NCBI GenBank assembly: GCA_044222185.1
Contig: JBGANV010000006.1
Coordinates: 1-64,000 of the forward strand
Source: Planctomycetota bacterium
GTDB taxonomy: Bacteria; Planctomycetota; GCA-002687715; CAIWVZ01
Direction: 5' to 3'
Length of the DNA: 64,000 bases
Shown here piece by piece: positions 1,745-26,450 of the stretch (position 1 is the stretch's first letter; each line of letters starts with the position of its first letter). A program made the translations under genes and the position numbers. Under the pieces are notes generated by a model, which saw only the letters and a list, made by a program, of their open reading frames with translations, did no database searches and was not told the origin of the DNA.

Positions 1745-1862
1745 CCGGGAGCGTCGGGGGGAGTCGAACCCCGGCCTTGCGGCCTTGCCATTTGTGGCAG
1801 GAATTGAACCTGCAACCGCGCCCGTCAGGGCGTGCTCTACCCTTGAGCTACACGTCTTCGTC
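1745..1862 (-). tRNA. tRNA-like locus: degenerate tRNA (canonical D-arm, TpsiC-arm) followed by GNRA hairpin and a second TpsiC-arm/3' fragment; anticodon not resolvable
   Basis: On the minus strand, in order: GTAGCTCAAGGGTAGAGCA (D-arm); CGCCC-TGAC-GGGCG (hairpin with only a 4-nt loop, so no valid 7-nt anticodon loop); GCAGGTTCAATTCCTGC (T-arm); GGCCGCAAGGCC (GNRA hairpin); CGGGGTTCGACTCCCC (second T-arm) then CGACGCTCC. The acceptor stems do not pair, so this is not an intact canonical tRNA. Confidence 0.35.
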
Positions 1863-8056: not shown

Positions 8057-8088
8057 GATCGTTTCTCCTGTCGGCGCGCTCGCCGAGG

Positions 8089-10563: not shown

Positions 10564-10696
10564 CGGAACTCAGGACTCGGCTCGCAGTCACCCTATTCCC
10601 GACGCAGCGAGATCTGCGTTCGTGGGCGACCCTACTGGAATGGGTTTCGGATCGTGAACTCGACCCACGACGGCGGCTCGGTGGGGTCGCGGTCTC

Positions 10697-11236
10697 GGAG
10701 CGCCATGTCCACCGCCGTCACGGCGGGGACTGGCCAGATCGCCGCGCGTCCCGCGCGGGCCAACCGGCGAGGAGTGGGGTTCAGTGCGAGATCACCTACG
10801 TCCGCATGATCGTCGATTGGCACGGTGCACGTCCACGCCCTCCGGACCGGACGCCTCGGCTGCGCCTCGGTCGTCCGGCGATCCTGCCGCTCGTCCTCGC
10901 CCCGCTTCGCGGCGCTGCGGTTCGAGCGGCGCTCCGTGCGGCGTCGCGATTGCGAGATCGAAAGGCGAGTGCCATCTCGACCGGGTCGCGGCTTCGGAGC
11001 GCCACGTCCACCGCCGTCTCGGCGGGGACTGGCCGGATCGCCGCGCGTCCCGCGCGGGCCAACCGGCGAGGAGTGGGGTTCAGTGCGAGATCACCTACGT
11101 CCGCATGATCGTCGATTGGCTCGGTGCACGTCCACGCCCTCCGGACCGGACGCCTCGGCTGCGCCTCGGTCGTCCGGCGATCCTGCCGCTCGTCCTCGCC
11201 CCGCTTCGCGGCGCTGCGGTTCGAGCGGCGCTCCGG
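10697..11236. repeat. family-B repeat element, two tandem copies (10697-10942 and 10995-11236)
   Basis: Direct repeats in the same orientation as copy 1 at 8325-8577. They account for the spurious 5' extension (10784-11467) of the FG-GAP ORF. Confidence 0.8.
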
Positions 11237-11467
11237 TCGGCCTGCGTCTCCTGCTGCGCCGCCAAAGATTCGCCCAGGAGCGCGATCAGCAGGACGGCGC
11301 GTGTCGTGGAGATCGTCATGTCGACCGCCACGATATCCGATGCGCGTGACGACGGGTGCGAACGATATGATGCCGCCTCGCGTCGCGGGCGGCCGGCGGA
11401 GCTGATCGCGGCGGGCGAACGGTCGACGGAGATTCCGGTGATGGAGCGAACGGCTTCGGTGACCCGC

Positions 11468-14419
11468 ATGCGGATCCTCTGCATTCGAGGACTCTTGGCG
11501 GCGATGATTTCGCCCGCGCTGGTTCAGGCTCAGGCGGGATACACCCTCGCCTCCGTGAGCAACCCGTCGGTCCTCAATCTGGATTTTGGGACGAGCGTGG
11601 CGTTCGTCGGAGACGTCGAAGGCGACGGCGTCGAGGACTACGCGGTCGGCGATCGTTACGCGCGCGCCGGCGGATCGGCGAGCGCGGGCGCGATCCACAT
11701 CATCAGCGGTGCGACGGGAGTGACGATCCGCGTGCACGCGGGCGTCGCGGGCGAAGGGCTCGGGGCCTCGGTCGCGGGGCTGGGCGACATCGACCACGAT
11801 GGCGTGCCCGACTACATCGGCGGGGCCCCGGCCGCGAGCCCGGGTGGCCGCGCCTACGCGTGGTCCGGTGCGACGGGCGCGCTGATCCACACGTTCAGCG
11901 GGACTGCGACGGTGGCGTGCATCGTCCCGTTTCCGTGCGCGCCGATCTCGGAGCAGTTGGGCGCGTCCGTCGCCGGGCCGGGAGATCTGAACGGAGACGG
12001 AACGCCGGACATCCTGATCGGAAGCCCGACACTCACGTTGTCGAATGCCGCCATCATGACGGGCGGAGCCCGCGTTTTTTCCGGTGCGAGCGGGGCAGCG
12101 CTTTTCGGCATCAACGGCGGCATCTCGTGGGCCGTGCTTGGCACCTCCGTCGCCGGCGGCGGCGATCTGAATCATGACGGGATCCCGGACATCGTCGTCG
12201 GGATGCCGCGGATTTCGCCGCTGCCGTACGGCAACACGCCGGGGGGCACCGGCTCGATCCACGCCATCGCCGGTGGAACGGGCGCGACGCTCTGGGTCGC
12301 GAGCGGCTCGCAGAGTGACGATCGCTTCGGCACGTCGATCGCGATCGTCGGCGACGTGAACGGGGACGGATCCGACGACGTGGCCGTGGGCGCACCAGGG
12401 TCGAGCCTCGGCGGAGTTCCGACCGTGCGCGTGGTTTCCGGGCAGAACGGGGCGACGCTCTTCAATACGCCAACCCCCGTCGGTGGCGATCGATTCGGCG
12501 CGGCGGTGGCGGCAGCCGGCGATGTCGATGGCGATGGCCATCTCGACGTCCTCGTGGGCGCGCCGCAGGCATTCAGCGGGACCGCGCTGTTCGCCGGCAA
12601 GGTCTACATCCTCAGCGGACTCTCGGGGGCGGTGCTGCGGACATACTCGAGTGCGACGGCTTACGACGCACTCGGGACTTCAGTGGCCGGTTGCCGCTCC
12701 ATCGACGGCGATGGAATCCCCGACGCGTTGATCGCGGCACCGCAAACCGTCGGCGCAGGCGGGCCCGGTCACGTGGAGGTCCGCTCCGGTGCGACGGGCC
12801 TTCCGATCCGCACGCACACGGGCGACCTGGGAATGCTGCGCTCGATCATCACTTCGACGATCGTCGTCGGCGATGTCGACGCAGACGGTCGGCCGGACAT
12901 CGCCGTCGCCATGCAGGACGGAGCGATCGCCGTCATCTCGGGCGCGACCGGGACGGCGATCCGCCGAATCGAGGGCCCACCACTCGCGCCTGGCACCACG
13001 TTCGAACTCGCGCCGCTCGGCGACGTGGATGGTGATGGCGCCGGCGACTTCGCGTCGCTCGCGGTCCTCTCGCTCGGCGGGACCGCGCAGTTGAACGTCG
13101 ATTCCGGCGCCACAGGGATGCCGCTCGCAAGCGTCTCGATCCCACGCTGCGGACTCGATCGAATCTCGCTCGCCGCCATCGCGGACGTGAACGGCGATTC
13201 GCGGAAGGATCTCGTGCTCGGCTTTCCGGCATCACCATCCGTGACGTGCGCGTCGTCAGGGGAGGTGCAGATCCGCTCCGGCGCGACCGGAGCGCTCTTG
13301 CGCTCGATCGCGACGAACCACTCGACCTACGATGGATTCGGGTTCGCGGTGAGCGGCGCCGGCGACCTGGATGGTGATGGAATCACGGACGTGCTCGTCG
13401 GCGCTCCGGCCACGCCGTTCCTCGGCGCGTTTGCAGCGGGCGCCGTCTACGGGTTCTCGACAGCGACGGGCCTGCAGTCGTTCGTCGTGTCAGGCACGTT
13501 GCAGAATCAGACGTTCGGCATCCGCGTGGCGTCGATTGGTGACCTCAACGGTGACGGCATCGCCGAGTTCGCCGCGACGAATCAGTTGAACGTGGCGGGC
13601 ACGTCGCCGGGTTCGGTGGAGGTGTGGTCGCCGCCCGCGGGACTGCTGTTGGCGACGATCGTGAACGCCGTGCCCTCGGAATCCATCGGCCGCGCGATCG
13701 CGGCGGTCGGCGACGCGGACGGAGACGGCGTGCCCGATCTCGCGGTGAGTGCGGGGACTGCGTCCTCCGGCGGAACGACGGCGGCGCGCGTCATCGTCGT
13801 TTCCGGCGCGACGTTCGCGCCCCGTTTCATGGTGCCCGATGTGACGCCCGGAGATCTCTTCGGGTGGACGCTCGCGCCGGCGGGTGACTGGAACGGCGAC
13901 GGCCTTTCCGACGTGATCGGGGGCGTGAGCGCGCTGCCGGGGCAGAGCGCCGTGCGCGTCGTCTCGTTCGCGGGGGTACCAGCCGGGTCGATGGCGGTCG
14001 GCAGCGGCTGCCCGCAGTCGAACGGCGACGTGCCGGTTCTCTCTGCCTTCGGCGGGCAGCCGACTGCGATCACCGGCAACCCGGCGTTCGGATTCGTGGT
14101 GTCGAACGCTCCGCCCGGCGTTCCGGGCGTGCTCGTCGTCGGCGGTTCAATGGCGTCCTGGGGCGGAACGAGCCTCCCACTTTCGCTTTCGAGCGCTGGG
14201 CTTCCCGGTTGCTCTCTCTTCGTGTCTCCGGACGTGCTGATTCCGTTCACGACGTCCACGGGCGTCGCAAGCCACGGATCGAAGTGGCTGTCGCTGCCCG
14301 TGCCGGTCGCACCCTCGCTCGTCGGCGCGCGACTGGCGTTCCAGGCGTACGCCGCCGCATCGACGGCGTCAGCGTTGCCCGGCGCCGTGACCCGCGCCGT
14401 GTCGATCGCGCTGCTCTAA
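11468..14419 (+). CDS. secreted FG-GAP (integrin-alpha-like) repeat protein, about 983 aa
   Basis: Signal peptide MRILCIRGLLAAMISPALVQAQA. More than 12 repeats of …GxSVAxxGDVNGDGxxDxxVGAP… (FG-GAP/VCBS-like). Stop TAA at 14417-14419 is followed immediately by a family-A repeat. Confidence 0.8.
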   Translation: MRILCIRGLLAAMISPALVQAQAGYTLASVSNPSVLNLDFGTSVAFVGDVEGDGVEDYAVGDRYARAGGSASAGAIHIISGATGVTIRVHAGVAGEGLGASVAGLGDIDHDGVPDYIGGAPAASPGGRAYAWSGATGALIHTFSGTATVACIVPFPCAPISEQLGASVAGPGDLNGDGTPDILIGSPTLTLSNAAIMTGGARVFSGASGAALFGINGGISWAVLGTSVAGGGDLNHDGIPDIVVGMPRISPLPYGNTPGGTGSIHAIAGGTGATLWVASGSQSDDRFGTSIAIVGDVNGDGSDDVAVGAPGSSLGGVPTVRVVSGQNGATLFNTPTPVGGDRFGAAVAAAGDVDGDGHLDVLVGAPQAFSGTALFAGKVYILSGLSGAVLRTYSSATAYDALGTSVAGCRSIDGDGIPDALIAAPQTVGAGGPGHVEVRSGATGLPIRTHTGDLGMLRSIITSTIVVGDVDADGRPDIAVAMQDGAIAVISGATGTAIRRIEGPPLAPGTTFELAPLGDVDGDGAGDFASLAVLSLGGTAQLNVDSGATGMPLASVSIPRCGLDRISLAAIADVNGDSRKDLVLGFPASPSVTCASSGEVQIRSGATGALLRSIATNHSTYDGFGFAVSGAGDLDGDGITDVLVGAPATPFLGAFAAGAVYGFSTATGLQSFVVSGTLQNQTFGIRVASIGDLNGDGIAEFAATNQLNVAGTSPGSVEVWSPPAGLLLATIVNAVPSESIGRAIAAVGDADGDGVPDLAVSAGTASSGGTTAARVIVVSGATFAPRFMVPDVTPGDLFGWTLAPAGDWNGDGLSDVIGGVSALPGQSAVRVVSFAGVPAGSMAVGSGCPQSNGDVPVLSAFGGQPTAITGNPAFGFVVSNAPPGVPGVLVVGGSMASWGGTSLPLSLSSAGLPGCSLFVSPDVLIPFTTSTGVASHGSKWLSLPVPVAPSLVGARLAFQAYAAASTASALPGAVTRAVSIALL

Positions 14420-14860: not shown

Positions 14861-17053
14861 ATGCGACGGAAGATCCAATCGAAGAAGGCGCGGCGGCAGG
14901 CACCCAAGCCGCGGAGCCGACCCGTGAAGCGTCAGCCCGCGGTCGGGCGCGCGGTCGATCGCAAGGACGGCGTCGACAAGGTGCTGGGGGCGGCGAAGTA
15001 CGTCGACGACCTCACGTTCCCGGGGATGCTCCACGGCCGCACGATCCGATCGACCGTGCCGAAGGGGTTCCTCCGCGCGGTGCGCTTCGCCTTCGACACC
15101 GACGGGTTCACGATCGTCACGCACCGGGACATTCCCGGTCGCAACGTCGTCGCGGTGATCGACGACGACCAGCCTTCGCTCGTCGCCGGGCCCATCGAGC
15201 ATGTTGCCGAGCCGATCCTCCTGCTCGCGCACGAGGATCGCGAGACGCTCCACGGCGCGGAGGTCCTCGTCGACGAGGCGCGCACCGATCCGAACTTCGA
15301 TCCCGAGGAGGCTTCACGCGTCTTCAAGGAGATCCGCATCGAGAAGGGCGACGTGCGCCGCGGCTTCGCCCAGGGCGATTTCATCGTCGAGGGCGAGTAC
15401 CGCACGGGGCATCAGGAGCAGCTCTACATCGAGACGAATGGGGTGATCGCCGTGCCCGAACCGGACGGCGGCGTCACCGTGTACGGTTCGCTCCAATGCC
15501 CGTACTACGTTCACCGCGCGCTCACCGTGCTCCTCGGTCTGCCCGAGTCCAAGGTGCGCGTCGTCCAGGTGGAGACGGGCGGCGGGTTCGGCGGCAAGGA
15601 GGAGTTCCCCTCGGTCATCGCCGGCCACGCGGCGCTGCTCGCGCTGAAAGCGACGCGCCCCGTGAAGATGATCTACGACCGTGCTGAGGACATGCTCGCG
15701 ACGACCAAGCGACATCCGTCGATCGTCCGCCACCGCACGGCGGTCGCTCGGGACGGGCGCATCACCGCCATGGACATCGACGTGCTTCTCGACGGCGGCG
15801 CGTATTGCACGCTCTCGCCCGTCGTCCTGTCGCGCGGCGTCATCCACGCGACGGGTCCCTATCGCTGCGACAACGTCCGACTGCACGGTCGCGCCGTGAA
15901 GACGAACACGCCGCCGAACGGCGCGTTCCGCGGCTTCGGCGCGCCGCAGACCCAGTTCGCCATGGAGGCGCACGTCGATCGGCTCGCGGACGCCGTCGGC
16001 CTCGACCCCGTGGCGTTTCGCGAGAAGAACCTCCTGCGCCCCGGAGACGAGACGGCCACGGGGCAAGTGCTGGAGAAGGACGCGAGCGCCGCGCGCGTGC
16101 TCCGCGCCGCCGTGCGCGCGACCGACTTCCGCCGTCGCCGCAAGACGCTCCAAGGCACGCGACGAGGCCTGGGCCTCTCGCTGTTCTTCCACGGCTCGGG
16201 ATTCACCGGCGGCGGTGAGATCAAGCTCGCGTCGAAGGCGTCGCTCGAGCTCACGGAACGCGGCGCGCGCATTCTCGTCGCGAGCACGGAAATCGGCCAG
16301 GGCACGCGGACGATGCACGCGCAGATCGTGGCGGACGCGTTGGGCGTGCCCTACGACGCGATCGAAGTCTCCGTCGCCGACACGGCGCGCGTACCCGACA
16401 GCGGACCCACGGTCGCGTCGCGTACGTGCATGATCGTGGGCAAGATCCTCGAGAGCTGCGCCCGCACCATGCGCGCGCGCGTCGGATCGCTCACGCATCG
16501 CGAGTATCTGAACCAGCACGGCCCGCTCGTCATCACGAAGGCCTACGACCGTCCCGAGGAACTCCATTGGAACGAGGACACCTACTTCGGTGACGCCTAC
16601 GGCGCGTACGGGTGGGGCTGCAACGTGGTGGAGATCGAGCTCGATCCGGACACGGGCGTGGTGAAGCCGATCCGGCTGACGGCCACGGTCGATTGCGGCA
16701 AGGCGATCCACCCCGTGCTCGCGCGCGGGCAGGTGGAAGGCGGATCCGTGCAGGGTTTGGGATGGGCAATCACGGAACGTGTCGTCATGAGAGACGGACG
16801 AATGGCGAACGCACGGCTGACCGACTACTGCATCCCGACCACGCTCGATGCGCCTCCGATCGACGTGATCTTCGTCGACTCGCCGTACCGCCACGGACCG
16901 TCGGGAGCGAAGGGACTGGGGGAGATGCCCATCGACGGCCCCGCGCCCGCGGTCGTCAATGCGCTGCGACATCTCGGCGTCGACGTGCGCGAACTGCCGG
17001 CCACCCCCGAGCGCATCCTCGCCGTGGGCATGCTGCGGGAGCTCCACCGATGA
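14861..17053 (+). CDS. xanthine dehydrogenase family molybdopterin-binding large subunit (CoxL/XdhA-type)
   Basis: 730 aa with aldehyde oxidase/xanthine dehydrogenase a/b-hammerhead and Mo-binding domains (…GGGFGGKE…, …QVEGGSVQGLGWAITE…). It is followed by the 2Fe-2S and FAD subunits, each with an overlapping stop/start. Confidence 0.9.
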   Translation: MRRKIQSKKARRQAPKPRSRPVKRQPAVGRAVDRKDGVDKVLGAAKYVDDLTFPGMLHGRTIRSTVPKGFLRAVRFAFDTDGFTIVTHRDIPGRNVVAVIDDDQPSLVAGPIEHVAEPILLLAHEDRETLHGAEVLVDEARTDPNFDPEEASRVFKEIRIEKGDVRRGFAQGDFIVEGEYRTGHQEQLYIETNGVIAVPEPDGGVTVYGSLQCPYYVHRALTVLLGLPESKVRVVQVETGGGFGGKEEFPSVIAGHAALLALKATRPVKMIYDRAEDMLATTKRHPSIVRHRTAVARDGRITAMDIDVLLDGGAYCTLSPVVLSRGVIHATGPYRCDNVRLHGRAVKTNTPPNGAFRGFGAPQTQFAMEAHVDRLADAVGLDPVAFREKNLLRPGDETATGQVLEKDASAARVLRAAVRATDFRRRRKTLQGTRRGLGLSLFFHGSGFTGGGEIKLASKASLELTERGARILVASTEIGQGTRTMHAQIVADALGVPYDAIEVSVADTARVPDSGPTVASRTCMIVGKILESCARTMRARVGSLTHREYLNQHGPLVITKAYDRPEELHWNEDTYFGDAYGAYGWGCNVVEIELDPDTGVVKPIRLTATVDCGKAIHPVLARGQVEGGSVQGLGWAITERVVMRDGRMANARLTDYCIPTTLDAPPIDVIFVDSPYRHGPSGAKGLGEMPIDGPAPAVVNALRHLGVDVRELPATPERILAVGMLRELHR

Positions 17054-17478
17054 AGTTCAGCCTGAATGGCAAACGCGTGGACGTCGTCGCGCCGCCGATG
17101 AAGCGGCTCCTGGACGTGCTGCGCGAGGAGTGCGGCCTCACGGGAACGAAGGAAGGCTGCGGCGAGGGCGAGTGCGGCGCCTGCACGGTCCTCGTCGATG
17201 GGGAGATCGTGAACGCGTGCCTCGTCCCGTTCGCGCACGTCGCCGGCACGCGCGTGACGACGGTCGAAGGGCTGCCCGCCGACCATCCGCTCGTGCGGGC
17301 TTTCGTGTCCGAGGGCGGAGCGCAATGCGGCATCTGCACTCCCGGGATGATGGTCGCGGCCTCCGTGCTTCCGAAAGACGCGTCGCGCGAAGACGTGTGC
17401 CAGGGCCTCGCCGGCAACCTCTGCCGTTGCACGGGGTACACGGCGATCGTGCGCGCGGTCGAGAAGGGTCAGTCGTGA
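17050..17478 (+). CDS. (2Fe-2S)-binding small subunit (CoxS/XdhC-iron-sulfur type)
   Basis: MKFSLNGKRV… with CGEGECGACTV and CGICTPGMM…CRCTGY motifs. ATG at 17050 overlaps the upstream TGA (ATGA). Confidence 0.9.
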   Translation: MKFSLNGKRVDVVAPPMKRLLDVLREECGLTGTKEGCGEGECGACTVLVDGEIVNACLVPFAHVAGTRVTTVEGLPADHPLVRAFVSEGGAQCGICTPGMMVAASVLPKDASREDVCQGLAGNLCRCTGYTAIVRAVEKGQS

Positions 17479-18317
17479 GGCCGCTCCTCTCCGAGTGTCA
17501 GTTGCTTCAGCCGCGGTCGCTTCCCGAAGCGTTGCGGATGCTGCACGAGGCCTGGCCCGCGATCCCCGTGGCCGGGTGCACGGACCTCTACGTGGCGATG
17601 AACGCCGGCACGCTCGGCGGCGGGCGCTTCGTCGACATCTGGGGTCTCGACGAGCTGCGGCCGATCCGCGTCGTCGGTGACGTGCTCACGATCGGCGCGT
17701 TGGCCACGTGGTCGCAGATCGCGCGGTCGGCGTCCGTGCGCAAGCGCCTGCCGATCCTCGTGGAGGCGGCGCGCCAGATCGGTGGCGTCCAGATCCAGAA
17801 CCGCGGCACGATCGGCGGCAACGTCGCCAATGCGTCACCCGCGGGCGATGGCTTGCCCGTGCTCGCGGTCGCCGACGCGGTCGTCGTCGTCGCCAGCGAA
17901 GCGCACGAGCGGCGCATCCCGTTCGGTTCGTTCTACACCGGGTATCGCAAGACGGCGCTCCTGCCCGGTGAGCTCATCGTCGCCATCGAGATCCCGCCCG
18001 TGGCGGGCAGGCAGTGGTTCCGCAAGGTCGGGACGCGCGCGGCGCAGGCGATCTCCAAGGTCGTCGTCGCCGGCGTTCGCGGCGCGACGCCGCGCCTCGC
18101 CTTCGGCAGCGTGGCGCCGACCGTGATCCGCGTTCCTCGCACCGAGCAGCACCTCGCCGCCGGTGGATCGCTCGCCGACGCGAAGAAGATCCTCCAGTCG
18201 GAGATCACGCCGATCGACGACGTCCGCTCGACGGCCGCGTACCGCCGAGCGGTTTGCGCGAACCTGCTCGAGCGGTTTTGGATCGAGACGTCGGCGTCGG
18301 CGCCTGGCGCGAGGTAG
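17475..18317 (+). CDS. FAD-binding medium subunit (CoxM/XdhB-type)
   Basis: GTG at 17475 overlaps the upstream TGA. FAD-binding motifs AGCTDLYV and IGGNVANASPAGD. C-terminal domain …EITPIDDVRSTAAYRRAVCANLLERFW…. The gene's 3' end is duplicated at 22608-22770. Confidence 0.85.
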   Translation: MRPLLSECQLLQPRSLPEALRMLHEAWPAIPVAGCTDLYVAMNAGTLGGGRFVDIWGLDELRPIRVVGDVLTIGALATWSQIARSASVRKRLPILVEAARQIGGVQIQNRGTIGGNVANASPAGDGLPVLAVADAVVVVASEAHERRIPFGSFYTGYRKTALLPGELIVAIEIPPVAGRQWFRKVGTRAAQAISKVVVAGVRGATPRLAFGSVAPTVIRVPRTEQHLAAGGSLADAKKILQSEITPIDDVRSTAAYRRAVCANLLERFWIETSASAPGAR

Positions 18318-18324
18318 GCGCCGG

Positions 18325-18768
18325 TCACTCCGATCCGTCGGACGTCGCGCCGACGACGCGAAAGCCCTCACGTTCGGCGCACTCGGCAAGCCGTGAATCG
18401 AAAGTCACGAACTCGACTTCCTCTGGCCGGTCGGCGACGGCGTAGAGTGCGGCCGCCAGCTGCAGGGAGTCACCGGCCCTGAGCGGATGGACCTCGAGGA
18501 TGCGCCGCGCGCGCTGAACCACGGCGGCGATGTCGGAGATCTCGACCCATCGTTCCGAGAGCCGTCGAAGAATGTCACGCGCCGCGCGCATCTCAGGCGA
18601 ACCGAGTCCGTGATCGCGCCGTCGGCGGCTGATCGCGGACCAGACCTCGACCGGCGTCAGGCACCACACGGACAGTGACGTGTCGCCCTCGTAGAGGCTC
18701 TCCGATCTCGCCGTGAATGCGTCGCGGACCAGGAGTGGGCAGACGGCCGACGAATCCCAGAACCTCAT
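18325..18768 (-). CDS. vapC: PIN-domain toxin (VapC-like)
   Basis: MRFWDSSAVCPLLV…PLRAGDSLQLAAAL…FVTFDSRLAECAEREG shows the PIN acidic residues. The ORF overlaps the upstream antitoxin ORF by 4 bp. Confidence 0.7.
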   Translation of the reverse strand: MRFWDSSAVCPLLVRDAFTARSESLYEGDTSLSVWCLTPVEVWSAISRRRRDHGLGSPEMRAARDILRRLSERWVEISDIAAVVQRARRILEVHPLRAGDSLQLAAALYAVADRPEEVEFVTFDSRLAECAEREGFRVVGATSDGSE

Positions 18769-19070
18769 CGGTCGTTTCTCCGTTCGTCGATCAACGCATC
18801 GACGACGCCGAAGGTCTTCGCGCCTGCCGGGAGGCGGCGCAAGTTGCGCGGCAGCGGCTTGAGCGTCCCGATCCTCGCTCCGCCCGAGCGGCGAAGGCGC
18901 TCGACCCACGGCGGAATCGTGCCGGCTTCGGACGGCGTCGCTGCCGTGATCGGTACCAGGCGTGCGACGGGAACGTTGCGGTCGCGGATCTCGATCGATT
19001 GTCCGCCCCGGACGGCGTCGAGGTATCGGCTGAGATGCGCCCGAAAGTGTGTGATGGGAATGCTCTTCAT
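18765..19070 (-). CDS. vapB: Phd/YefM-type antitoxin (VapB-like)
   Basis: 101-aa ORF MKSIPITHFRAHLSRYLDAVRGGQSIEIRDRNVPVARLVPI… (prevent-host-death fold pattern), translationally coupled to the PIN gene. Confidence 0.6.
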   Translation of the reverse strand: MKSIPITHFRAHLSRYLDAVRGGQSIEIRDRNVPVARLVPITAATPSEAGTIPPWVERLRRSGGARIGTLKPLPRNLRRLPAGAKTFGVVDALIDERRNDR

Positions 19071-19255
19071 GATTTGATCATTATGGTCAGAACAGTGAGC
19101 GCGTCAACGACGGCGGTCCCGGGGGTTACGACCCGATGACCGCCAGTGCCGCCCGCGAGCCGACCGTTGACGGGCCGACCCATCGACGGCGGTCTCGCGA
19201 AGTTCGCATCCTGCCGATGTCGATCGTCCATGCCTCCGTCGTTGGGCGGGCCGAG

Positions 19256-22200
19256 CTAACGCGGCCTGTGTCGCGCGTCTTGCAATGCGCCCGCGTCGAT
19301 TGCCCATTCGATCGCCTGGAGAACCGGCAGTTCGGCGATTTCGAGATGTCGTGACGCCACGCGTCGCCTGGTGCCGTCGCCGCGATCCAGCTCGAGGTGC
19401 ATCTCCAATGGGCCCGTGGATGGCACCGGAAAGGCTGCCGACCCGTCAGTCGCGACGGGCTCGCTCATCATTCCGACGAATGTGCGCTCGGGGGTTCGTT
19501 CCACGGTTTTCGCACGCATCTCGTACCGACCGACGACGATCCGCCAGGACTCGCGGTTCGCCTGATTCAACGTCGCATTCGTGATCCGGACTGCGAGTGT
19601 CGGAGCCGCGTCGAGCACGACACGCGCCGTTGCCTGCGCAATTGTCGACTCGGTGGTCAGCAACCCCCGTTTCGAGATCTGTATGGACACGGTTCCCGGC
19701 GGGACGACGAGAACCGCGCGACCGTGGCTGTTCGTGAGGCGCGCGGGTCGCGGGTCGCCGTAGGGTGCGTCCGCCTCGGTGACCGTGATCCTGGCATTAG
19801 CCACCGGACACCCGCTTCGATCCACGACGTCGATCGCACGGGCCAGGATGCGGTCGCGCAGATCGATGGGCTGAACCCGCACGACTCCCGACGCTGGAAC
19901 TTGGTGCCGTCGACCCTGGCGAACACGACAGGGTCGATGGGGGTATGGAGTCCCGCGAGCGAGACGGTGATGACGCCCATCCCGGACTGCAGGCCGCGGA
20001 TCCGGAATGTCCCAGCTGAATCGACTCGGTCTGCGGCGTGCGCCGCCGGATGACCACCGGTGGAGGGCGCGCCGGCGCAGCTGCCCCGAATCTCGACAAA
20101 CAGCTCGATTCCTGGGACGCCATCGGGGAGGAGCAGAGAGCCTTCAAGGACCGCCGCCCGGGGAACCCTCACGACGACGTTCCCGGCGCCGGCTCTGAAT
20201 GGAGTGGGGTCGGATGGAGGTGCGTCATCTCCTTCGACCGAGAGCTGGAATTCGCCGTCGTCCACTGGCGCATAGATGGCGAAACGTCCGTCGTCGTCCG
20301 TGGCGCCGACGAGAGTTGGATCGCGGGAGTCGGTGGACGCCCCCGCCTGCGCCGTGGTCCATCGAGCGTCGATGCGAAGCCTGGCGTTCGGGACAGCCGA
20401 GCCGAGATCATCACGCACGACTCCGGAGACGAGGCAGGGGACCGGTTCCATGACGACCGTTCCGAATGCGATGTCGCGGGGCTGGGGCGACTCCGAGGGG
20501 AGTTTCACCGTCGTACTGCGAGGCTGGGTGTGGTCGCGCCAGTTCCCGAAATCGCGTGACATGAGCGCGAGTCGAGCTCCGGGCACAACCCACGCGCGAT
20601 CGTCGACAGGGACTCGGAGGCAGCCATTGCTGTCGGTGCGCGCTCGAGCCGAGTTCATCACGTCGAATACCGCCGATCCCGCGCGGGCGGGAGCCACGTA
20701 CACGACGTGGTTCGCGATCGGCTGGTTCGCTTCGTCGACGAGTCGCGCGACGATGACGGGTTTGCGCGCGCCGACGGCGAGCGAAACGTGGACCTTCTCG
20801 CCGGCTGTCGTCGGCCCAGCGACCTCCACCGACGCGAGCGCGTGTTCGTGGTCGAGTGCGTGAAGCCTGACGAGAAATCTGCCGCCGAGCGCGACTGTGG
20901 GGAACACGCACCGCCCATCGCGAACTTCGCGCCAGGATGTGCCGCGTTCCCAGCCGTGAGGATCGTGGTCATTCGACTCCACGAGTGCGCTCGTGATTCC
21001 CGCATACGCTGTGCCGCGCAGCGGGTTGCCGTCCTCGTCCGTCGCGTCGACGACGAGCTGCCCGGTCTCTGGGAGCTTCAGTACGATCGGATCGATTGGG
21101 AGATGATCGAGGTCGATTTCCGTCGGCGGCGCATCCGGAAATTCGGGGCCGAGATGAACGGCGAACATGCGTCCAGCGACGACCATCGAGCGCCACTGCT
21201 GCAAGTGGCGAGCTGTGAAGCAGCCCGACGAATCGGTCGTCCCGACGTAGACGTCACCCCGCGGCAGCCCCACGGCGGACTGGGTGATTCGTACGGGTAC
21301 GTCAGCCGCTCCGTGTCCCGACGAGTTCTCGACACGCACCTGCAGGGTGAGGTCGGCGCCCAGTTCCAGCCGCAGCAGCGATGTGCGTCCTTCGGCAGGG
21401 CTCCACGCGCGCCATCGACCAGGGGCGTTCGCCGTCAGGCGGGCTTCTGGCAGGTGGTGCAGCGTTGCCACTCCGTCGCTGCCCGTCGTGGCGGTCATCG
21501 TCGGCGTGAGTCTCTGGTAGCCCCAGTCGAGGTCCGTGGCGAGGAGCGCGACGTCGGGACTCCGCGTGACGGGTCCTCGATCCCAAGCGGTCAGCGTCGC
21601 GCCCGAAAGCGGTGCACCCGTTTCCTGCGCGACGACGAGAACGCGGACTTCGTCGCGTCCGACGGTGCGGGCCTCGTCCGTGTTGGGGTCGAACGCCGAT
21701 GTCACTACGGGCGCCACGGCGCTGAAGTTGCTTGTGGTGGACGGCGGGTCGTCCGCGGGGCGGACTGCGGTGCGGTCGCTCCCGACGAGCATGGCGGCTC
21801 CATCGGGCGTGCCGCCTCCTTGCTGGACGACGATCATGACGGCGACGAGCAGAACGAGGGTCAGCGTGCCGGTCGCGATCTTCATGGTTGCTCCCCCGAT
21901 CGTGGCCGCCGCAGCGAGCGAGGCCGTCGTGGAAAGTGTCGGTGCAGCGCAATCGCCGAGAAGCGGGGAGAACGCAAGCACCCACGACGCACGATCGCCG
22001 CCGAACGAGGAATCGAGAGTCCGACGAAGCCGTTCGAGGCCACGTTTCAGACGGGTCTTCACCGTGCCGACGGGTTCACCCGTACGAGCCGCGACGTCAC
22101 GCGGCGGCAGCCCGTGCAGATAGCGGAGGATGATTGCGTCGCGATATGGGTCGCCGAGCGCGTCGATGGCGTCGATGAGTCTGCGCAGCTGCTCGACGGC

Positions 22201-22497
22201 AACGACGGTGTCCGCCGTCGCTTGCTGCGGCGGTGCCGGAAGGGCGTCGTTCTCGTGGATCGCCCGGCGTCGCTCGCGGCGGCGCGCATGTCGCACGACG
22301 TTGCGCGCAATGCCGCGCAACCACGCGGCCGGATGGACTCGCTCTGGGCGCAGAGTTCGCAGGGCCGCAAGCCACGTCTCTTGGAGGACGTCCTCCGGAT
22401 CGACACCAGGACCCAGCAGCGCACGAACGAGACTCCGCAACCCCGTCGTCTCTTGACGGATGAAGTCGTCGTCGAGGGGATGGTCTGCGGGCGTCAT
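19256..22497 (-). CDS. ECF sigma-70 domain fused in frame to a TM helix and about 850-aa extracytoplasmic region with carboxypeptidase-regulatory-like repeats; reading frame breaks near 19885-19895 (frameshift or sequencing error)
   Basis: The N-terminal 180 aa carry sigma region 2 and region 4 (…GLPPRDVAARTGEPVGTVKTRLKRGLERLR…). There is no stop before the TM segment MKIATGTLTLVLLVAVMIVVQQ. Repeats include …VSGVVRDDLGSAVPNARLRIDAR…. ORF 19657..22497 continues in the other frame as ORF 19256..19882 (…SGCPVANARITVTEADAPYG…). Confidence 0.6.
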
Positions 22498-22607
22498 GGA
22501 TGGCCCATCATGCCCGCTCGTGGCCGATCGGGGTCAGGCGGTTTGGGGGTTCTTGGTTTTCATCGAGCCGGCGGGGGCGTCACGCGGCTAATCCGGCGCG
22601 TCCACGC

Positions 22608-22770
22608 TGGCGGCGCAGGCGATCTCCAAGGTCGTCGTCGCCGGCGTTCGCGGCGCGACGCCGCGGAGATCACGCCGATCGACGACGTCCGCTCGACGGC
22701 CGCGTACCGCCGAGCGGTTTGCGCGAACCTGCTCGAGCGGTTTTGGATCGAGACGTCGGCGTCCGCCGCC
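22608..22770. repeat. duplicated fragment of the FAD-subunit gene 3' end (copy of 18037-18300 with an internal deletion of about 105 bp)
   Basis: GGCGCAGGCGATCTCCAAGGTCGTCGTCGCCGGCGTTCGCGGCGCGACGCCGC|GGAGATCACGCCGATCGACGACGTCCGCTCGACGGCCGCGTACCGCCGAGCGGTTTGCGCGAACCTGCTCGAGCGGTTTTGGATCGAGACGTCGGCGTC is identical to 18041-18093 plus 18200-18300. Confidence 0.85.
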
Positions 22771-22802
22771 GGAGCGGTGCGACCGTCACACGGACGATCC
22801 CA

Positions 22803-25800
22803 TCACGGCAACGGGTAGGGGAGCGCGAGATCCCGACACTCGACTCCGCCGCTGTGCGTGAACACGAGCTTCGACGTCGTGAGACCGCCCGTTCCGCTCC
22901 GCAGGAACCAGATCGTGCCGTGGTCGCCGACGTTGTAGAAACCCGTCTCGAGCACGACACGCGCGGTCGTGTCCAAGACCGGCGCCGTCATCGACCCACC
23001 GGTGCCCGGAATGAGCTTGTAGATCGAGAGCTTTCCGCCGGCCTCACCCACGGCGAGCGCGTCGCTCGTGCCGTCTCCGTTGATGTCGATGAAGCGGAGA
23101 CCCGTCACGCGACCCAACGCGTAGGACGCTCGGACCGTGACGGACGACGCAGTGACGTCCAGGAGGAACACGCTCTTCCCGGAGTAGGCCGTGCTCGTGC
23201 TGGCGAAGATCGCGCCCACGGCCGCCGTGTTGCCGTCCGCATCGCAGGCCGCGATGTCAGCGCAGCGCAGCGTGACGTTCGGCACCGGGGTCGACGTGAA
23301 GGGGACCGGCCAGCCGAGGCCGTGGCTTCCATACTGGACCATGTCACCGACGAACACGTTCCCGCTCTGCGAGCCGAAGAGCACGCGATCGAGGACGCCG
23401 CCGGGAGTGAGCGAGAGGATCTTCAGCGCGGCGTCCTCCGTGGCGGACAGCGTGTTGACGCCGAACGGTCCGATTGCGGACGCGAAGCCTGATGGCGGGG
23501 ACGGGATCGGAGCGAACGTTCCGGCCTCGTTCGCCTCGGCGACGCCGCTTGCGAGACGCGGGCACATGCCGTCAGGCAGGCTCGTGGCGCTGCTGCACGA
23601 CGACGCCCCGACGACCCAGTTGTGCTCGTTCGCCTTGTCGGACGACGCGACGATCAAGCCCCATTTCCGCGCCGCACGGAGGAAGCCAGACGGCGAGCCG
23701 CTGAACGGCATCACGTCGCCACCCTCCTCGAACAGCTCGTAGGACGCGTCGACGTCCGTGTCGGCCGTCCGCCGCATCTGCTTGGGGAGAACCTGGACGG
23801 ACGTGCTGGAGCAATCCTGCAGGCGGGCGACGGTGCGACCGCCGTTGGCCGTCAGTTCTGCACCCGTGGCGAGGTTGAACCGACGCAGCTTCCACGCGCC
23901 GACGGCCGTCGAACCACGCTCGAGGACCGCCAGCTCCCATTGCGATGCCGGAGACGCGACGAGGCGGACGTCGACGGCTGTCGTCGGGAGGCGCCCTGCG
24001 ATCGCGCTCGGTGCGGAGAGCGCCGATCCGGTCGTCGTGAGGAACCGGATTCCACCGACAGACGTGAACTGCACGATTCGATCCGTGCCGCCGATCGAGC
24101 CGAGCACGAACGCGCCGCCCGGCGTCGACGTGAGCGACGACGACACCGCCCCCGTGGTGAGATCGACCGAGTACAGCGCGCCCTGGTTCACGATCACCGA
24201 CGTGCTGCCGCTGACGGCGATGTGCTCGACCGGACCGCTGTTCGCGAGCGGAATGCGCCCGAGCGCCGCGCCGAGCGAGAGCGTCGGTACGGGGATGCAG
24301 GAATCGTACTCCTGGCAGACAGCGCACGGATCGGTGCCGCCGCTCGGCTTGCAGCCCGAGGGGATCGTCGGCAGCGTCAGGCTCGTGCTCGGCGGAACGA
24401 TCGCGATCGGAGTTCCAGTCGTCAGGTTGATCCGCGCTCCGGAGGTGTCGAGTACGGTCAGCCAGTTCACGAACGGGCTCACGTGCGTGTTCTGCTGCGA
24501 ACCGCCGCAGACGATCCACGTGCTGCCACCCGACCCGGAGACGAATTCAAAATCCCGTGGTTCGTACTCGAGGTACTCGGACGTCATCTCGACGACGAGC
24601 CGAGCGACGCCGCCCACCGTCGGGAACCCGAAGCGCGCGATGTGTCCCTTGGCGAGCGACGCGTACAGCCGTCCCTTGCCGCCTTCGCTGCGGATCATGA
24701 GCTTGCACGCCATGCCGATCGGCGCCTTGAACAGTTCCGCGCGCGTCCCAGCGTCTTCGATGACGAGAGTGTCGCCGTGATCGATGTACGCGACGTGCGG
24801 GCCGGCTCCGAACGACCATCCGGAGATCGAGCCCGACGTGATGGCGGTGACGTCGCGGCGGACCGGCGCACCTGGGAAGGCCGTCTCGGCGCCCGTCGCC
24901 GGGTTGAGATAGTGAATGCCGCGCATGTCACCCACGAGGACCGCGCCGCCCGATCCGATGGTGAGAGATTTCGGGTCGACGCCCGTGAACGTGCTCCACG
25001 CCATCGTCGGCGGGTTCGTCGTGAGATCGAATTTCCGGACGTACCCCTCGAGGCTCTTCACGTAGAGCGCATCGCCGCTGACGACCGCGGTGTCGAGCTG
25101 GAGACCGAGCTCCGTCCCGAGGCCGACCAGGCTGAACGTGGGCGACGAGATGTACGTGGGGTTCGGGTTCGTCGACGCCCGCGTCTGGAGCAGGAAGTCG
25201 TCGTAGGTCGTGTCCGGCGCGTAGGCGGGCGTGCTCGGCGTCGTCATGCATGCGGTGACTGTGGCGTTCGCGACGTGCGGCGGGACCCCCGGTGCGCAGG
25301 GGAGGCCGGCTCGCATGCGAATGAGCAGGTTCTTGATGGCGTCGTCATCGTCGAAGCCGCAGGTCTCGCCGTGACCCGAATCGTCGATGACCTGATAGTC
25401 GATCCATGCCGGCAACGCCGCCTTCGTCGCGTCGACGAGATCGCGCGAGGGGATCAGGCGGTCGTCACGGCCATCGACGATCGTCATGGGGATGCGGAAG
25501 TTGCCCGGGCTGTGAAGCAGATCCAGTGCGTCGAGCGACAGGCCGTACTGGCGTGCGATCGTGGCGCCGTTGTCCAGGTCCGAGTCGTCGAGGGGACGGA
25601 GCGGATGGAGACCGGACGCCCTGCGGCGCGTCTGGATGAGTGCGTGCCATGCCTCGTAGTGCCGATAGCTCGTCGGTGTCCCACGAACGTAGACCGCGTC
25701 GAAGACGTCGGGCGCGAGCGCCGCGGACGCGAGCCCGACGCCGGCGCCGTAGGACCCGCCGGTGCGAACGATGTAGTTGTACCCCTGAGCCCGCATCAGA

Positions 25801-26450
25801 CTCGCGATCATCACGCCCTGCTGAACGGAGAAGACCAGCGGTTGGTAGTAGACGGAGTCCGCCATTCGCACGACGGCGCAGCCGCGCTGAAGCCACGGCA
25901 TGGCCTGCGAGACGTCGAGCTCCGGCGGCCGATCGAACGGCGTGTTGATCGAGCCGTCCGTGCGCGTGGGGAAGTCGTAGACGACCGCCACGTCGGGGTC
26001 CGTCTGGGAGGCGGCCCACGTGGGATCGGGCACGTAGGCCGAAAACCACTGGCGGTTGACCTTGCCTGCCAAGCGGTAGACGGAGACGGGTGTTCCGTTG
26101 AACGAGACGGTCTCCACGCACGTCGGGTACGCCACGTAACTCGAGAGCTGGATGCTCGACGCGACCGGCGTGTCACATGCCCCACCCACATAGGCGCCGA
26201 CGCCGATGTCGTAGTAGAGCTCGCCCCAGTTCTGGAATAGGTCGTTGTTGAAGTTCAGGTGCCAGCCCGAGTGGAGATCGGGGTTGGTGGGATCGTAGAG
26301 GAACGGAATCCCTGCGCCGCCCATGTAGGTCGTTTGCGCAGCGGACGTCGCCGCGAGCAGGATCCAGGCGGCGAGCCACAGCGGCCGATTGCAGCTCCGC
26401 TCACGGCGGAGCATGGCTGCACGAGGTGACGGATCGGACATGGATGGCAA
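22803..26450 (-). CDS. large secreted protein: N-terminal alpha/beta-hydrolase (esterase/lipase-like, GGSYGAG nucleophile elbow) + C-terminal beta-propeller/FG-GAP-like region
   Basis: 1215-aa ORF. Signal peptide …NRPLWLAAWILLAATSAAQ (likely start MLRRERS at about 26414). Motifs G-x-S-x-G and …IDINGDGTSDALAVGEAGGKLSIYKL…. Antisense ORF 23622..26240 is Arg-rich junk. Confidence 0.7.
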   Translation of the reverse strand: MPSMSDPSPRAAMLRRERSCNRPLWLAAWILLAATSAAQTTYMGGAGIPFLYDPTNPDLHSGWHLNFNNDLFQNWGELYYDIGVGAYVGGACDTPVASSIQLSSYVAYPTCVETVSFNGTPVSVYRLAGKVNRQWFSAYVPDPTWAASQTDPDVAVVYDFPTRTDGSINTPFDRPPELDVSQAMPWLQRGCAVVRMADSVYYQPLVFSVQQGVMIASLMRAQGYNYIVRTGGSYGAGVGLASAALAPDVFDAVYVRGTPTSYRHYEAWHALIQTRRRASGLHPLRPLDDSDLDNGATIARQYGLSLDALDLLHSPGNFRIPMTIVDGRDDRLIPSRDLVDATKAALPAWIDYQVIDDSGHGETCGFDDDDAIKNLLIRMRAGLPCAPGVPPHVANATVTACMTTPSTPAYAPDTTYDDFLLQTRASTNPNPTYISSPTFSLVGLGTELGLQLDTAVVSGDALYVKSLEGYVRKFDLTTNPPTMAWSTFTGVDPKSLTIGSGGAVLVGDMRGIHYLNPATGAETAFPGAPVRRDVTAITSGSISGWSFGAGPHVAYIDHGDTLVIEDAGTRAELFKAPIGMACKLMIRSEGGKGRLYASLAKGHIARFGFPTVGGVARLVVEMTSEYLEYEPRDFEFVSGSGGSTWIVCGGSQQNTHVSPFVNWLTVLDTSGARINLTTGTPIAIVPPSTSLTLPTIPSGCKPSGGTDPCAVCQEYDSCIPVPTLSLGAALGRIPLANSGPVEHIAVSGSTSVIVNQGALYSVDLTTGAVSSSLTSTPGGAFVLGSIGGTDRIVQFTSVGGIRFLTTTGSALSAPSAIAGRLPTTAVDVRLVASPASQWELAVLERGSTAVGAWKLRRFNLATGAELTANGGRTVARLQDCSSTSVQVLPKQMRRTADTDVDASYELFEEGGDVMPFSGSPSGFLRAARKWGLIVASSDKANEHNWVVGASSCSSATSLPDGMCPRLASGVAEANEAGTFAPIPSPPSGFASAIGPFGVNTLSATEDAALKILSLTPGGVLDRVLFGSQSGNVFVGDMVQYGSHGLGWPVPFTSTPVPNVTLRCADIAACDADGNTAAVGAIFASTSTAYSGKSVFLLDVTASSVTVRASYALGRVTGLRFIDINGDGTSDALAVGEAGGKLSIYKLIPGTGGSMTAPVLDTTARVVLETGFYNVGDHGTIWFLRSGTGGLTTSKLVFTHSGGVECRDLALPYPLP

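What the first reader, a model, noticed from the sequence alone, without database searches (positions are those of the whole stretch)
19256..22497. ECF sigma factor fused in frame to a TM helix and a large extracytoplasmic CarbopepD-reg-like repeat domain, with a frame break near the 3' end
- A complete ECF sigma (regions 2 and 4) runs without a stop into about 45 aa, then a predicted TM helix (TLTLVLLVAVMIVVQQ), then about 850 aa of beta-sandwich-like repeats (…VSGVVRDDLGSAVPNARLRIDAR…).
- Normally the sigma factor and its membrane anti-sigma are separate genes.
- An in-frame fusion would mean either a sigma whose release needs proteolysis, or a recently lost stop codon.
- The ORF switches frame around 19885-19895: 946-aa ORF 19657..22497 continues as 208-aa ORF 19256..19882, which carries another CarbopepD-reg-like unit. 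The gene is therefore either a frameshifted pseudogene or the sequence has an indel error.
Basis: seen in the sequence. Interest (0 to 1): 0.6.

Follow-up and report, generated by a model that had tools for sequence, protein, structure and literature searches.

The report
Frameshifted membrane-tethered ECF sigma factor
This gene encodes a transcription (sigma) factor fused to a membrane anchor and a long outward-facing array of beta-sandwich domains; the fusion is normal for a large, uncharacterised family seen mostly in Planctomycetota genomes, and this copy is broken by a one-base deletion.

Summary
ORF 19657..22497(-) encodes a complete ECF sigma factor, a 45-aa linker, one hydrophobic helix and a long beta-sandwich (CarboxypepD_reg-like) array. 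ORF 19256..19882(-) is its out-of-frame C-terminus.

The fusion is not a recently lost stop codon.
- 77 full-length homologues (715-1462 aa) share the architecture.
- An exhaustive search with only residues 1-230 found 146 further relatives. Of these, 114 are at least 600 aa and 143 carry the hydrophobic helix. None is a stand-alone sigma factor.
- A motif just after sigma region 4 (LD-x4-GGDR-xx-W-xx-AL) is as conserved as sigma region 2.

The frame break is a 1-nt deletion at about 19892-19894, inside the sixth of eight beta-sandwich units. Homologues align straight across it. It is not in a long homopolymer or a slippery site. An independently assembled contig from a public read set is identical. 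I therefore think it is real (about 0.65) rather than an error.

The gene lies with a Phd/PIN toxin-antitoxin pair in a 4.3-kb islet of lower GC3, bracketed by a duplicated gene end.

The likely mechanism, inferred and not shown, is release of the sigma factor by regulated proteolysis, as for IutY.

Verdict: a new, damaged member of a known kind. Interest is modest.

The parts
19256..22497 (-). Whole gene as it would read if one base were restored: 1080 aa plus stop (sigma, linker, membrane helix, eight beta-sandwich units).
   Evidence: ORFs and reconstruction. It aligns collinearly with P0003 (979 aa) and P0002 (1064 aa) through the break.
22264..22449 (-). Sigma region 2 (aa 17-78).
   Evidence: Pfam Sigma70_r2, E 1.2e-11. 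AF2 pLDDT is 86-93.
22024..22185 (-). Sigma region 4 (aa 105-158).
   Evidence: Pfam Sigma70_r4_2, E 2e-12. AF2 pLDDT is 91-97.
21958..22017 (-). Conserved motif just after region 4, LDSSFGGDRASWVLAFSPLL (aa 161-180). The family signature is LD-x4-GGDR-xx-W-xx-AL.
   Evidence: Conservation over 208 family sequences: L161 91%, D162 84%, G167 74%, R169 76%, W172 84%, A175 73%, L176 76%. It is also visible. AF2 predicts short helices at 169-180 with pLDDT about 78-91.
21823..21882 (-). Single predicted membrane-spanning helix (aa 206-225, KIATGTLTLVLLVAVMIVVQ).
   Evidence: Kyte-Doolittle 19-mer maximum of 2.35. An equivalent segment is present in all 78 family members and in 143 of 146 further relatives.
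19894..21651 (-). Beta-sandwich units 1-6 of the extracytoplasmic array (aa 283-868), in the first reading frame. It includes the Pfam CarboxypepD_reg hit at 20182-20430.
   Evidence: Pfam. AF2 strands with pLDDT mostly 80-93. Foldseek matches to pilin/CnaB and macroglobulin-type bead arrays.
19892..19894 (-). Frame break: one base is missing between codon Q868 (19896-19894) and S870 (19891-19889).
   Evidence: Sequence and three-frame translations. Homologue alignments cross the site without a gap of domain size. The sequence is identical in Logan contig L001.
19259..19891 (-). Beta-sandwich units 7-8 and the C-terminal tail (aa 870-1080), in the second reading frame. The stop codon is at 19256-19258. 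It includes the Pfam CarboxypepD_reg hit at 19622-19828.
   Evidence: Pfam E 3.8e-7. Coding-type GC pattern by codon position. AF2 pLDDT is 87-93 across aa 861-900.
19657..19893 (-). Out-of-frame 78-aa tail that the 946-aa ORF reads after the break. It is not real coding sequence in that frame.
   Evidence: GC by codon position is 0.53/0.80/0.71, and the translation is rich in Arg, Ser and Pro.
18325..19070 (-). Phd/YefM antitoxin (18765-19070) and PIN-domain toxin (18325-18768), immediately downstream in the same islet.
   Evidence: Pfam PhdYeFM_antitox E 1.4e-9 and PIN E 4.9e-5. Gene calls on L001.
18033..18311 (+). Repeat copy 1: the 3' end of the intact FAD-subunit gene of a xanthine-dehydrogenase-type operon. 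It forms the left border of the islet.
22604..22776 (+). Repeat copy 2: a fragment of the same gene end, 96-97% identical, with a 106-nt internal deletion. It forms the right border of the islet, 107 nt upstream of the sigma start codon.

Best explanation
**What it is**
- The locus is one gene for a single-pass, membrane-tethered ECF sigma factor.
- From the N-terminus it has: cytoplasmic sigma regions 2 and 4; a conserved 16-20-aa motif; a variable Ala/Gly-rich spacer; one membrane helix; and about eight tandem transthyretin/Ig-like (CarboxypepD_reg-type) beta-sandwich domains outside the cytoplasm.
- This architecture is the ancestral state of a large clade found mostly in MAGs labelled Planctomycetota. 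It is not a local accident.

**State of this copy**
- A 1-nt deletion at about 19892-19894 cuts off the end of unit 6 and all of units 7-8.
- The deletion is probably real and recent. Everything else, including every near-invariant sigma residue, is intact.
- The gene sits with a Phd/PIN toxin-antitoxin pair in a 4.3-kb, compositionally distinct islet bounded by a duplicated gene end. That fits an acquired, dispensable gene.

**How the family most likely works (inferred, not shown)**
- The outer array binds an envelope or extracellular ligand.
- Signal-dependent site-1 cleavage, followed by intramembrane (RseP-type) cleavage, frees the sigma domain to join RNA polymerase. This has been shown for the sigma/anti-sigma hybrid IutY.
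- The conserved motif after region 4 would hold the tethered sigma inactive, or would serve as a processing or degradation determinant.
For: **Domains and helix (shown)**
- Pfam, NCBIfam and hydropathy results.

**The fusion is a family trait (shown)**
- 77 homologues of 715-1462 aa all carry sigma r2/r4. Nearly all also carry CarboxypepD_reg.
- All 78 family members have a hydrophobic segment 30-60 aa after region 4.
- An exhaustive phmmer search with aa 1-230 returned 150 hits at E<=1e-29. Of the 146 new ones, 114 are >=600 aa and 143 have the helix. The 12 shorter than 300 aa are mostly fragments that still contain the helix.

**Conserved motif (shown)**
-.

**One gene across the break (shown)**
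- BLASTP alignments to P0003 and P0002 run through aa 855-885.
- AF2 pLDDT is 87-93 over aa 861-900.
- Codon-position GC favours the second frame after the break.

**The break is probably real (inferred)**
- Logan contig L001, from read set SRR28480390, is 100% identical over 18269..22639.
- The site is not in a long homopolymer and has no X_XXY_YYZ slippery heptamer.
- The neighbouring xdh/cox genes are intact.

**Islet (shown)**
- Direct repeats.
- GC3 is 0.76-0.79 inside the islet against 0.87-0.89 outside.

**Mechanistic precedent**
- IutY (ECF243) is released by Prc and RseP. The same mechanism is proposed for ECF48/52/53 (PMC8999054).
- No separate anti-sigma gene lies next to three intact homologues.
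Against: - No read-level data were available. L001 may come from the same reads as the assembly, so it excludes an assembler error but not a systematic read error or a minority variant.
- The mechanism has no direct support here. Neither a protease site nor a protease gene was examined.
- The K/R bias around the helix is uninformative (1.39 against 1.43). The N-in/C-out topology therefore rests on domain logic alone.
- I could not inspect the AF2 coordinates, so whether the motif packs against regions 2 and 4 is unknown.
- No Pfam anti-sigma domain is detected in any family member.
- The host phylum is unresolved. The flanking CoxL gene is closest to Acidobacteriota MAGs.
Confidence: 0.6

Rival explanations
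1. The gene is intact in the organism. The missing base is a sequencing or assembly artefact, or a minority variant that was fixed in the consensus.
For: - It is a single 1-nt lesion in an otherwise undamaged gene.
- All near-invariant family residues are retained.
- The source is a metagenome-type assembly.
- Other family members also look frame-split in assemblies, for example P0081/P0082.
Against: - The sequence is identical in a separately assembled Logan contig.
- That contig is a clean 4.4-kb unitig that ends exactly in the repeats. This argues for accurate reads.
- The site is not a long homopolymer.
- The adjacent genes are uninterrupted.
Confidence: 0.3
2. A recently lost stop codon fused an ordinary sigma gene to its downstream membrane anti-sigma gene.
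For: An ATG-Lys (MK) lies just before the helix (..GGATMKIATG..) and could pass for an old start codon.
Against: - The fusion, the linker motif and the helix position are conserved in 77 + 146 relatives at only 35-48% identity.
- No stand-alone sigma factor appears among the nearest relatives.
- The 45-aa linker has no recognisable anti-sigma domain.
Confidence: 0.02
3. The two ORFs are meant to be read as they stand: either two overlapping genes or a programmed -1 frameshift.
For: ORF2 has a GTG start at 19882.
Against: - Homologues encode the region in one frame.
- There is no slippery heptamer at the site.
- ORF2 would start in the middle of a beta-sandwich domain, with no signal peptide or membrane helix.
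- The tail of the 946-aa ORF has a non-coding codon-position pattern.
Confidence: 0.03
4. Mechanistic rival for the family. The sigma domain is never released. It works while tethered to the membrane (as ToxR and CadC do), or it is a non-transcriptional cytoplasmic module of a surface protein.
For: - No protease site or anti-sigma domain was identified.
- The cytoplasmic linker is short.
- The extensions are highly variable, which Pinto & da Fonseca (PMC7671368) attribute to fortuitous capture of neighbouring sequence.
Against: - Regions 2 and 4 keep the canonical ECF residues and score above the ECF family cut-off.
- The only experimentally studied sigma / membrane-helix hybrid, IutY, is released by regulated intramembrane proteolysis (PMC8999054).
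- Strong conservation of the motif and the helix argues against a fortuitous read-through.
Confidence: 0.2

Closest known systems
IutY of Pseudomonas putida (ECF243), a sigma/anti-sigma hybrid
   Same: - One polypeptide with an N-terminal ECF sigma, one membrane helix and a periplasmic C-terminal part.
- The sigma is activated by release through Prc and RseP proteolysis (PMC8999054).
   Different: - IutY carries a FecR-type anti-sigma and signalling domain and works with a TonB-dependent transducer in iron signalling.
- Here there is no FecR domain. The cytoplasmic linker is about 45 aa with its own motif, and the outer part is an eight-unit beta-sandwich array.
Actinobacterial ECF52 (SCO4117), ECF48 and ECF53
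   Same: - An ECF sigma is fused through membrane helices to an extracytoplasmic region. In ECF52 that region is carbohydrate-binding.
- Proteolytic activation is proposed (PMC8999054, PMC5826349).
   Different: - Those groups have a zinc-finger (ZAS-like) anti-sigma domain after region 4, a proline-rich segment, and extensions of up to about 400 aa.
- Here there is no HxxxCxxC or zf-HC2, and the extension is about 900 aa.
Planctomycetal ECFs with large variable C-terminal extensions (ECF57, ECF01-Gob; the clade analysed by Pinto & da Fonseca 2020)
   Same: - The named family members carry the same phylum label.
- The extensions are very large and poorly conserved, while regions 2 and 4 are well conserved (PMC7671368, PMC7826278).
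   Different: - ECF57 is described with WD40-like repeats and two conserved cysteines linking regions 2 and 4 (PMC8999054).
- This protein has no cysteine in its sigma domain, and most family members have none.
- It has no WD40 hit.
- The conserved motif plus helix is not mentioned in the texts I could read.
Classical ECF sigma plus single-pass anti-sigma pairs (RpoE-RseA, SigW-RsiW), and SigI-RsgI of Clostridium thermocellum
   Same: - The signalling logic matches: an extracytoplasmic sensor, one membrane helix and a cytoplasmic sigma held at the membrane.
- RsgI senses polysaccharides with extracellular modules and is cut by RseP (PMC10328401, PMC12203970).
   Different: - Those systems use two separate genes, and a folded anti-sigma domain binds the sigma.
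- Here the sigma itself is the tethered protein.

Membership tests
ECF (group 4) sigma-70 factors | Regions 2 and 4 are present, regions 1.1 and 3 are absent, and the score is above the family cut-off. | tested here: met
   Pfam Sigma70_r2 and Sigma70_r4_2 hits, with no r3 or r1 hit. TIGR02937 scores 71.8 bits against a cut-off of 42.9.
Membrane-tethered ECF / CarboxypepD_reg family (this clade; unnamed) | Conserved LD-x4-GGDR-xx-W-xx-AL motif directly after region 4. | tested here: met
   LDSSFGGDRASWVLAF at aa 161-176. Column conservation is 64-91% over 208 sequences.
Membrane-tethered ECF / CarboxypepD_reg family (this clade; unnamed) | A single hydrophobic helix 30-60 aa after region 4, followed by tandem beta-sandwich domains. 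| tested here: met
Membrane-tethered ECF / CarboxypepD_reg family (this clade; unnamed) | One uninterrupted reading frame. | tested here: not met
   A 1-nt deletion at 19892-19894. Homologues P0002, P0003 and P0006 are intact.
ECF57 | WD40-like repeats in the C-terminal extension. | tested here: not met
   No WD40 or beta-propeller Pfam hit. The AF2 model is a bead array of beta-sandwiches.
ECF57 | Two conserved cysteines that could link regions 2 and 4 (PMC8999054). | tested here: not met
   There are no cysteines in aa 1-163 of this protein. Most of the 78 family members also have none.
ECF57 or any other ECF Hub group | Assignment by the group-specific HMMs of the ECF classification 2.0. 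| not testable with these tools
   The ECF Hub models and the supplement of PMC7826278 are not available here.
ECF48/52/53 | A zinc-finger (ZAS, HxxxCxxC) anti-sigma domain between region 4 and the membrane helices. | tested here: not met
   No zf-HC2 hit. The linker has one Cys and no HxxxCxxC.
ECF243 IutY-type hybrids | A FecR-type domain in the extension. | tested here: not met
   No FecR (PF04773) hit on this protein or in the precomputed Pfam lists of the 77 homologues.
NCBIfam planctomycete sigma subfamilies (TIGR02984 Sig-70_plancto1, TIGR02989 Sig-70_gvs1) | Score above the curated cut-off. | tested here: not met
   58.2 bits against a cut-off of 183.75, and 52.7 bits against 124.55.
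Type II toxin-antitoxin pair (neighbouring genes) | An adjacent, overlapping antitoxin (Phd/YefM) gene and PIN toxin gene. | tested here: met
   Pfam hits. Gene calls 3570-3875 and 3872-4315 on L001 overlap by 4 nt.

The most novel reading that the evidence does not exclude
The conserved LD-x4-GGDR-xx-W-xx-AL segment is a minimal built-in anti-sigma or processing element. On this reading the clade (at least about 200 clusters at 50% identity) is a distinct, unstudied class of one-polypeptide transmembrane sigma signalling. The sigma itself would be the substrate of regulated intramembrane proteolysis, and the fast-evolving beta-sandwich array would set ligand specificity. The islet context would further suggest that such modules move between genomes, possibly between phyla.
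Probability: 0.3. Interest if true: 0.6.

Novelty: new member of a known kind. Interest (0 to 1): 0.3.

Why it matters
- **Annotation.** The two ORFs should be treated as one disrupted gene. The sigma-helix fusion should not be 'corrected' into two genes.
- **Biology.** The case points to a large, experimentally untouched clade of membrane-tethered ECF sigma factors with a sharply conserved motif just after region 4. That clade is a tractable system for asking how a sigma factor anchored in the membrane is activated.
- **This copy.** On its own it is a damaged, probably dispensable member, so it adds little beyond that pointer.

Tried and rejected
- **Close orthologues.** I scanned GTDB representative genomes and JGI metagenome contigs with P0001, looking for an intact base at the break or an empty islet site. 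I found only one spurious distant sigma hit and then nothing.
- **Sigma-only word-index search.** One search returned short fragments and unrelated Verrucomicrobia-type ECFs and missed the long family members. I treated it as a candidate-selection artefact and replaced it with the exhaustive search.
- **Topology.** The K/R bias in the helix flanks was uninformative.
- **ECF-type promoter.** I looked for AAC-N15-18-CGT upstream of this gene and four homologues and found no match. GAAAC(C)-like words are present, but at inconsistent spacing.
- **ECF group assignment.** The supplement of PMC7826278 is not held. Pinto et al. 2019, Jogler et al. 2012 and Wiegand et al. 2020 are not held.
- **Source organism.** Cluster look-ups gave no names, and the CoxL product was not on record.
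- **Family-wide Pfam scan.** The alignment exceeded the size limit, so I used the precomputed domain lists.
- **Programmed frameshift and two-gene readings.** I considered both and rejected them (see the rival explanations).
Full report
**1. What is in the sequence**

On the minus strand, ORF 19657..22497 (946 aa) starts with a complete ECF sigma factor.
- Pfam Sigma70_r2 covers aa 17-78 and Sigma70_r4_2 covers aa 105-157.
- TIGR02937 scores 71.8 bits against a cut-off of 42.9.

The frame continues without a stop into a 45-aa linker. It then reaches the only strong hydrophobic segment of the protein, aa 206-225 (Kyte-Doolittle 2.35). A long region follows, with a significant CarboxypepD_reg hit (aa 690-772) and weak Big_1 and MG4 hits.

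ORF 19256..19882 (208 aa) lies in another frame and carries a further CarboxypepD_reg unit.

**2. The frame break**

After 'DGTKFQ' the 946-aa frame becomes rich in Arg, Ser and Pro.
- Its GC content by codon position is 0.53/0.80/0.71, which is not a coding pattern.
- The second frame shows the coding pattern of the rest of the gene, 0.69/0.53/0.76.

I joined the frames at Q868 to give a 1080-aa protein.
- It aligns collinearly with the two closest homologues, P0003 (979 aa) and P0002 (1064 aa), straight through the junction: 'RVDGTKFQ.SGVVRVQPIDLRDRI' against 'RVESGRVSTDERLNPIDLRGKL'.
- At nucleotide level, cag (Q868, 19896-19894) is followed by two bases (19893-19892) and then tcg gga gtc. 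One base is therefore missing.
- An AlphaFold2 model of the restored protein, built with the 78-sequence alignment, gives pLDDT 87-93 for aa 861-900. Strands on both sides of the junction belong to the same run of beta-sandwiches.

The two ORFs are therefore one gene, interrupted inside the sixth of about eight sandwich units.

**3. Is the break real?**

- There is no slippery heptamer and no long homopolymer at the site.
- A contig assembled independently by the Logan project from read set SRR28480390 (L001, 4371 nt) is 100% identical to window 18269..22639, including the deletion.
- That contig is a clean unitig that ends exactly in the flanking repeats. This suggests accurate reads.
- The neighbouring xanthine-dehydrogenase-type genes are uninterrupted.
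- Against this, I had no read-level data, and L001 may derive from the same reads as the assembly.

I put about 0.65 on a genuine deletion and about 0.3 on an artefact or minority variant.

All near-invariant residues of the family are retained. If the lesion is real, it is recent.

**4. The fusion is a family trait**

A search with the restored protein returned 77 homologues of 715-1462 aa.
- All carry sigma r2/r4, and nearly all carry CarboxypepD_reg.
- None carries a known anti-sigma domain.
- All 78 family members, this gene's own ORF included, have a hydrophobic segment 30-60 aa after the end of region 4.

That search favours long hits, so I repeated it without that bias. I ran an exhaustive phmmer search of aa 1-230 alone against 1.84 billion cluster representatives.
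- The best 150 hits all have E<=1e-29 and 35-48% identity, and most matches extend into the linker and helix.
- Of the 146 new proteins, 114 are >=600 aa, 20 are 300-599 aa and 12 are shorter than 300 aa.
- 143 of the 146 carry the helix. The shorter ones are mostly fragments that still contain it.
- No stand-alone sigma factor appears among the nearest relatives.

Three intact homologues on long contigs have no adjacent anti-sigma gene. The 'recently lost stop codon' reading is therefore refuted.

**5. A conserved motif after region 4**

Directly after region 4 the family shares LD-x4-GGDR-xx-W-xx-AL, which is LDSSFGGDRASWVLAF here.
- Conservation over 208 sequences is L161 91%, D162 84%, G167 74%, R169 76%, W172 84%, A175 73% and L176 76%.
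- The information content is comparable with region 2.
- The following spacer and the region just after the helix are not conserved.
- AF2 predicts short helices at 169-180 with intermediate to high confidence.

I could not inspect the coordinates, so whether this element docks on regions 2 and 4 is unknown.

**6. The outer part**

- The AF2 model has mean pLDDT 71.8. The sigma domain scores 85-97.
- It shows about eight beta-sandwich units between aa 283 and 1037.
- Foldseek matches are to bead-like arrays: Gram-positive pilins of CnaB type, the TIE protein and macroglobulin MG domains.
- These matches confirm the fold class and say nothing about a ligand.

**7. Mechanism (inferred)**

A sigma factor anchored by its C-terminus has two options. 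It can be cut free, or it can act at the membrane.
- The one experimentally studied sigma / membrane-helix hybrid is IutY (ECF243). Prc and RseP release it, and truncation makes it constitutively active.
- The same mechanism is proposed for ECF48/52/53 (PMC8999054).

I therefore favour release by regulated proteolysis (about 0.45). The conserved motif would act either as an in-cis inhibitor or as a processing or degradation determinant. Action while tethered is the main rival (about 0.2).

In this copy, loss of units 7-8 could either inactivate the sensor or deregulate cleavage. Neither outcome can be tested here.

**8. Comparison with known groups**

- ECF sigma factors with C-terminal extensions form 19 groups in the current classification (PMC7826278).
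- Planctomycetal ECFs with very large, poorly conserved extensions are described. They are attributed to duplication followed by capture of adjacent sequence (PMC7671368).
- ECF57 averages 5.3 copies per planctomycete genome (PMC7826278). It is described with WD40-like repeats and two conserved cysteines (PMC8999054). This protein has neither.
- The features of ECF48/52/53 (zinc finger) and of IutY (FecR domain) are also absent.
- The ECF Hub models could not be run.

I therefore file this as a new, damaged member of a known kind (ECF sigma factors with fused membrane-spanning extensions), in a clade that appears to be uncharacterised.

**9. Context**

The gene and a Phd/YefM-PIN toxin-antitoxin pair occupy 18312..22603.
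- The segment is bracketed by a direct repeat of the 3' end of the FAD-subunit gene.
- Copy 1 is 18033-18311, in the intact gene.
- Copy 2 is 22604-22776. It is 96-97% identical and has a 106-nt internal deletion.
- GC3 of the islet genes is 0.76-0.79, against 0.87-0.89 for the flanking genes.
- No integrase is present.

This looks like a small acquired islet, which fits a dispensable gene that can decay.

The host phylum is unresolved.
- Family members that carry an organism name are all labelled Planctomycetes or Planctomycetota MAGs.
- The flanking CoxL gene is closest (70-74% identity) to Acidobacteriota MAGs.

**10. Verdict**

The fusion and the frame break are real. Release by proteolysis is plausible. 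The lost-stop idea is refuted.
- The finding is ordinary at the level of this locus, and modestly interesting as a pointer to a large unstudied clade and its conserved motif.

Noticed in passing
window 18033-18311 and 22604-22776 (islet 18312-22603): The 3' end of the FAD-subunit gene is duplicated at 96-97% identity. The second copy has a 106-nt internal deletion. The two copies bracket a 4.3-kb segment that holds only the toxin-antitoxin pair and the sigma fusion. There is no integrase. A Logan contig spans exactly this segment and ends in the repeats.
   Followed up: partly
window 18325-22497 versus flanks 14861-18317 and 22803-26450: Third-position GC is 0.76-0.79 for the islet genes and 0.87-0.89 for the flanking genes. 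This suggests the islet was acquired horizontally.
   Followed up: partly
window 18325-19070 (-): An intact Phd/YefM antitoxin and PIN-domain toxin pair, overlapping by 4 nt, lies immediately downstream of the sigma fusion.
   Followed up: partly
window 14861-17053 (+): The closest named relatives of the CoxL-type molybdopterin subunit (70-74% identity) are Acidobacteriota MAGs (Thermoanaerobaculia, Vicinamibacterales). Named members of the sigma family are Planctomycetota MAGs. The host phylum is unresolved, and the islet may have crossed phyla.
   Followed up: partly
L006 6001-7499 (GCA_964268255.1); proteins P0081 and P0082: A related sigma+motif gene of 209 aa is followed 63 nt later by a 268-aa ORF that looks like the part after the membrane helix. 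A sister sequence (P0082) runs through a membrane helix into out-of-frame-looking sequence. Other members of the clade also appear frame-split in assemblies.
   Followed up: partly
window 1794-1853 (-): Rfam reports a tRNA match (37.5 bits, model positions 5-66 of 71). ARAGORN finds no tRNA in the window. It may be a tRNA fragment or a divergent tRNA.
   Followed up: no
window 22803-26450 (-): A 1215-aa ORF with good coding statistics (GC3 0.87) and no Pfam hit lies directly upstream of the islet on the same strand.
   Followed up: no
L002 5955-6000 and L003 4915-4959; window 22498-22570: The 40-nt leaders of the two closest homologues share 'CTGAGTCCTCG...CGTGCAC'. The window has a similar 'CTGACCCCGATCGGCC', and L002 has 'CTGAGTCCTCGATCGGCC'. 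GAAAC(C) words lie further upstream at inconsistent spacing. This may be a shared regulatory element.
   Followed up: partly
window 10658-14419 (+) and 7190-8422 (-): A 1253-aa FG-GAP repeat protein and a secretin-N-domain protein lie upstream of the xdh/cox operon. They are typical of genomes rich in large surface proteins.
   Followed up: no
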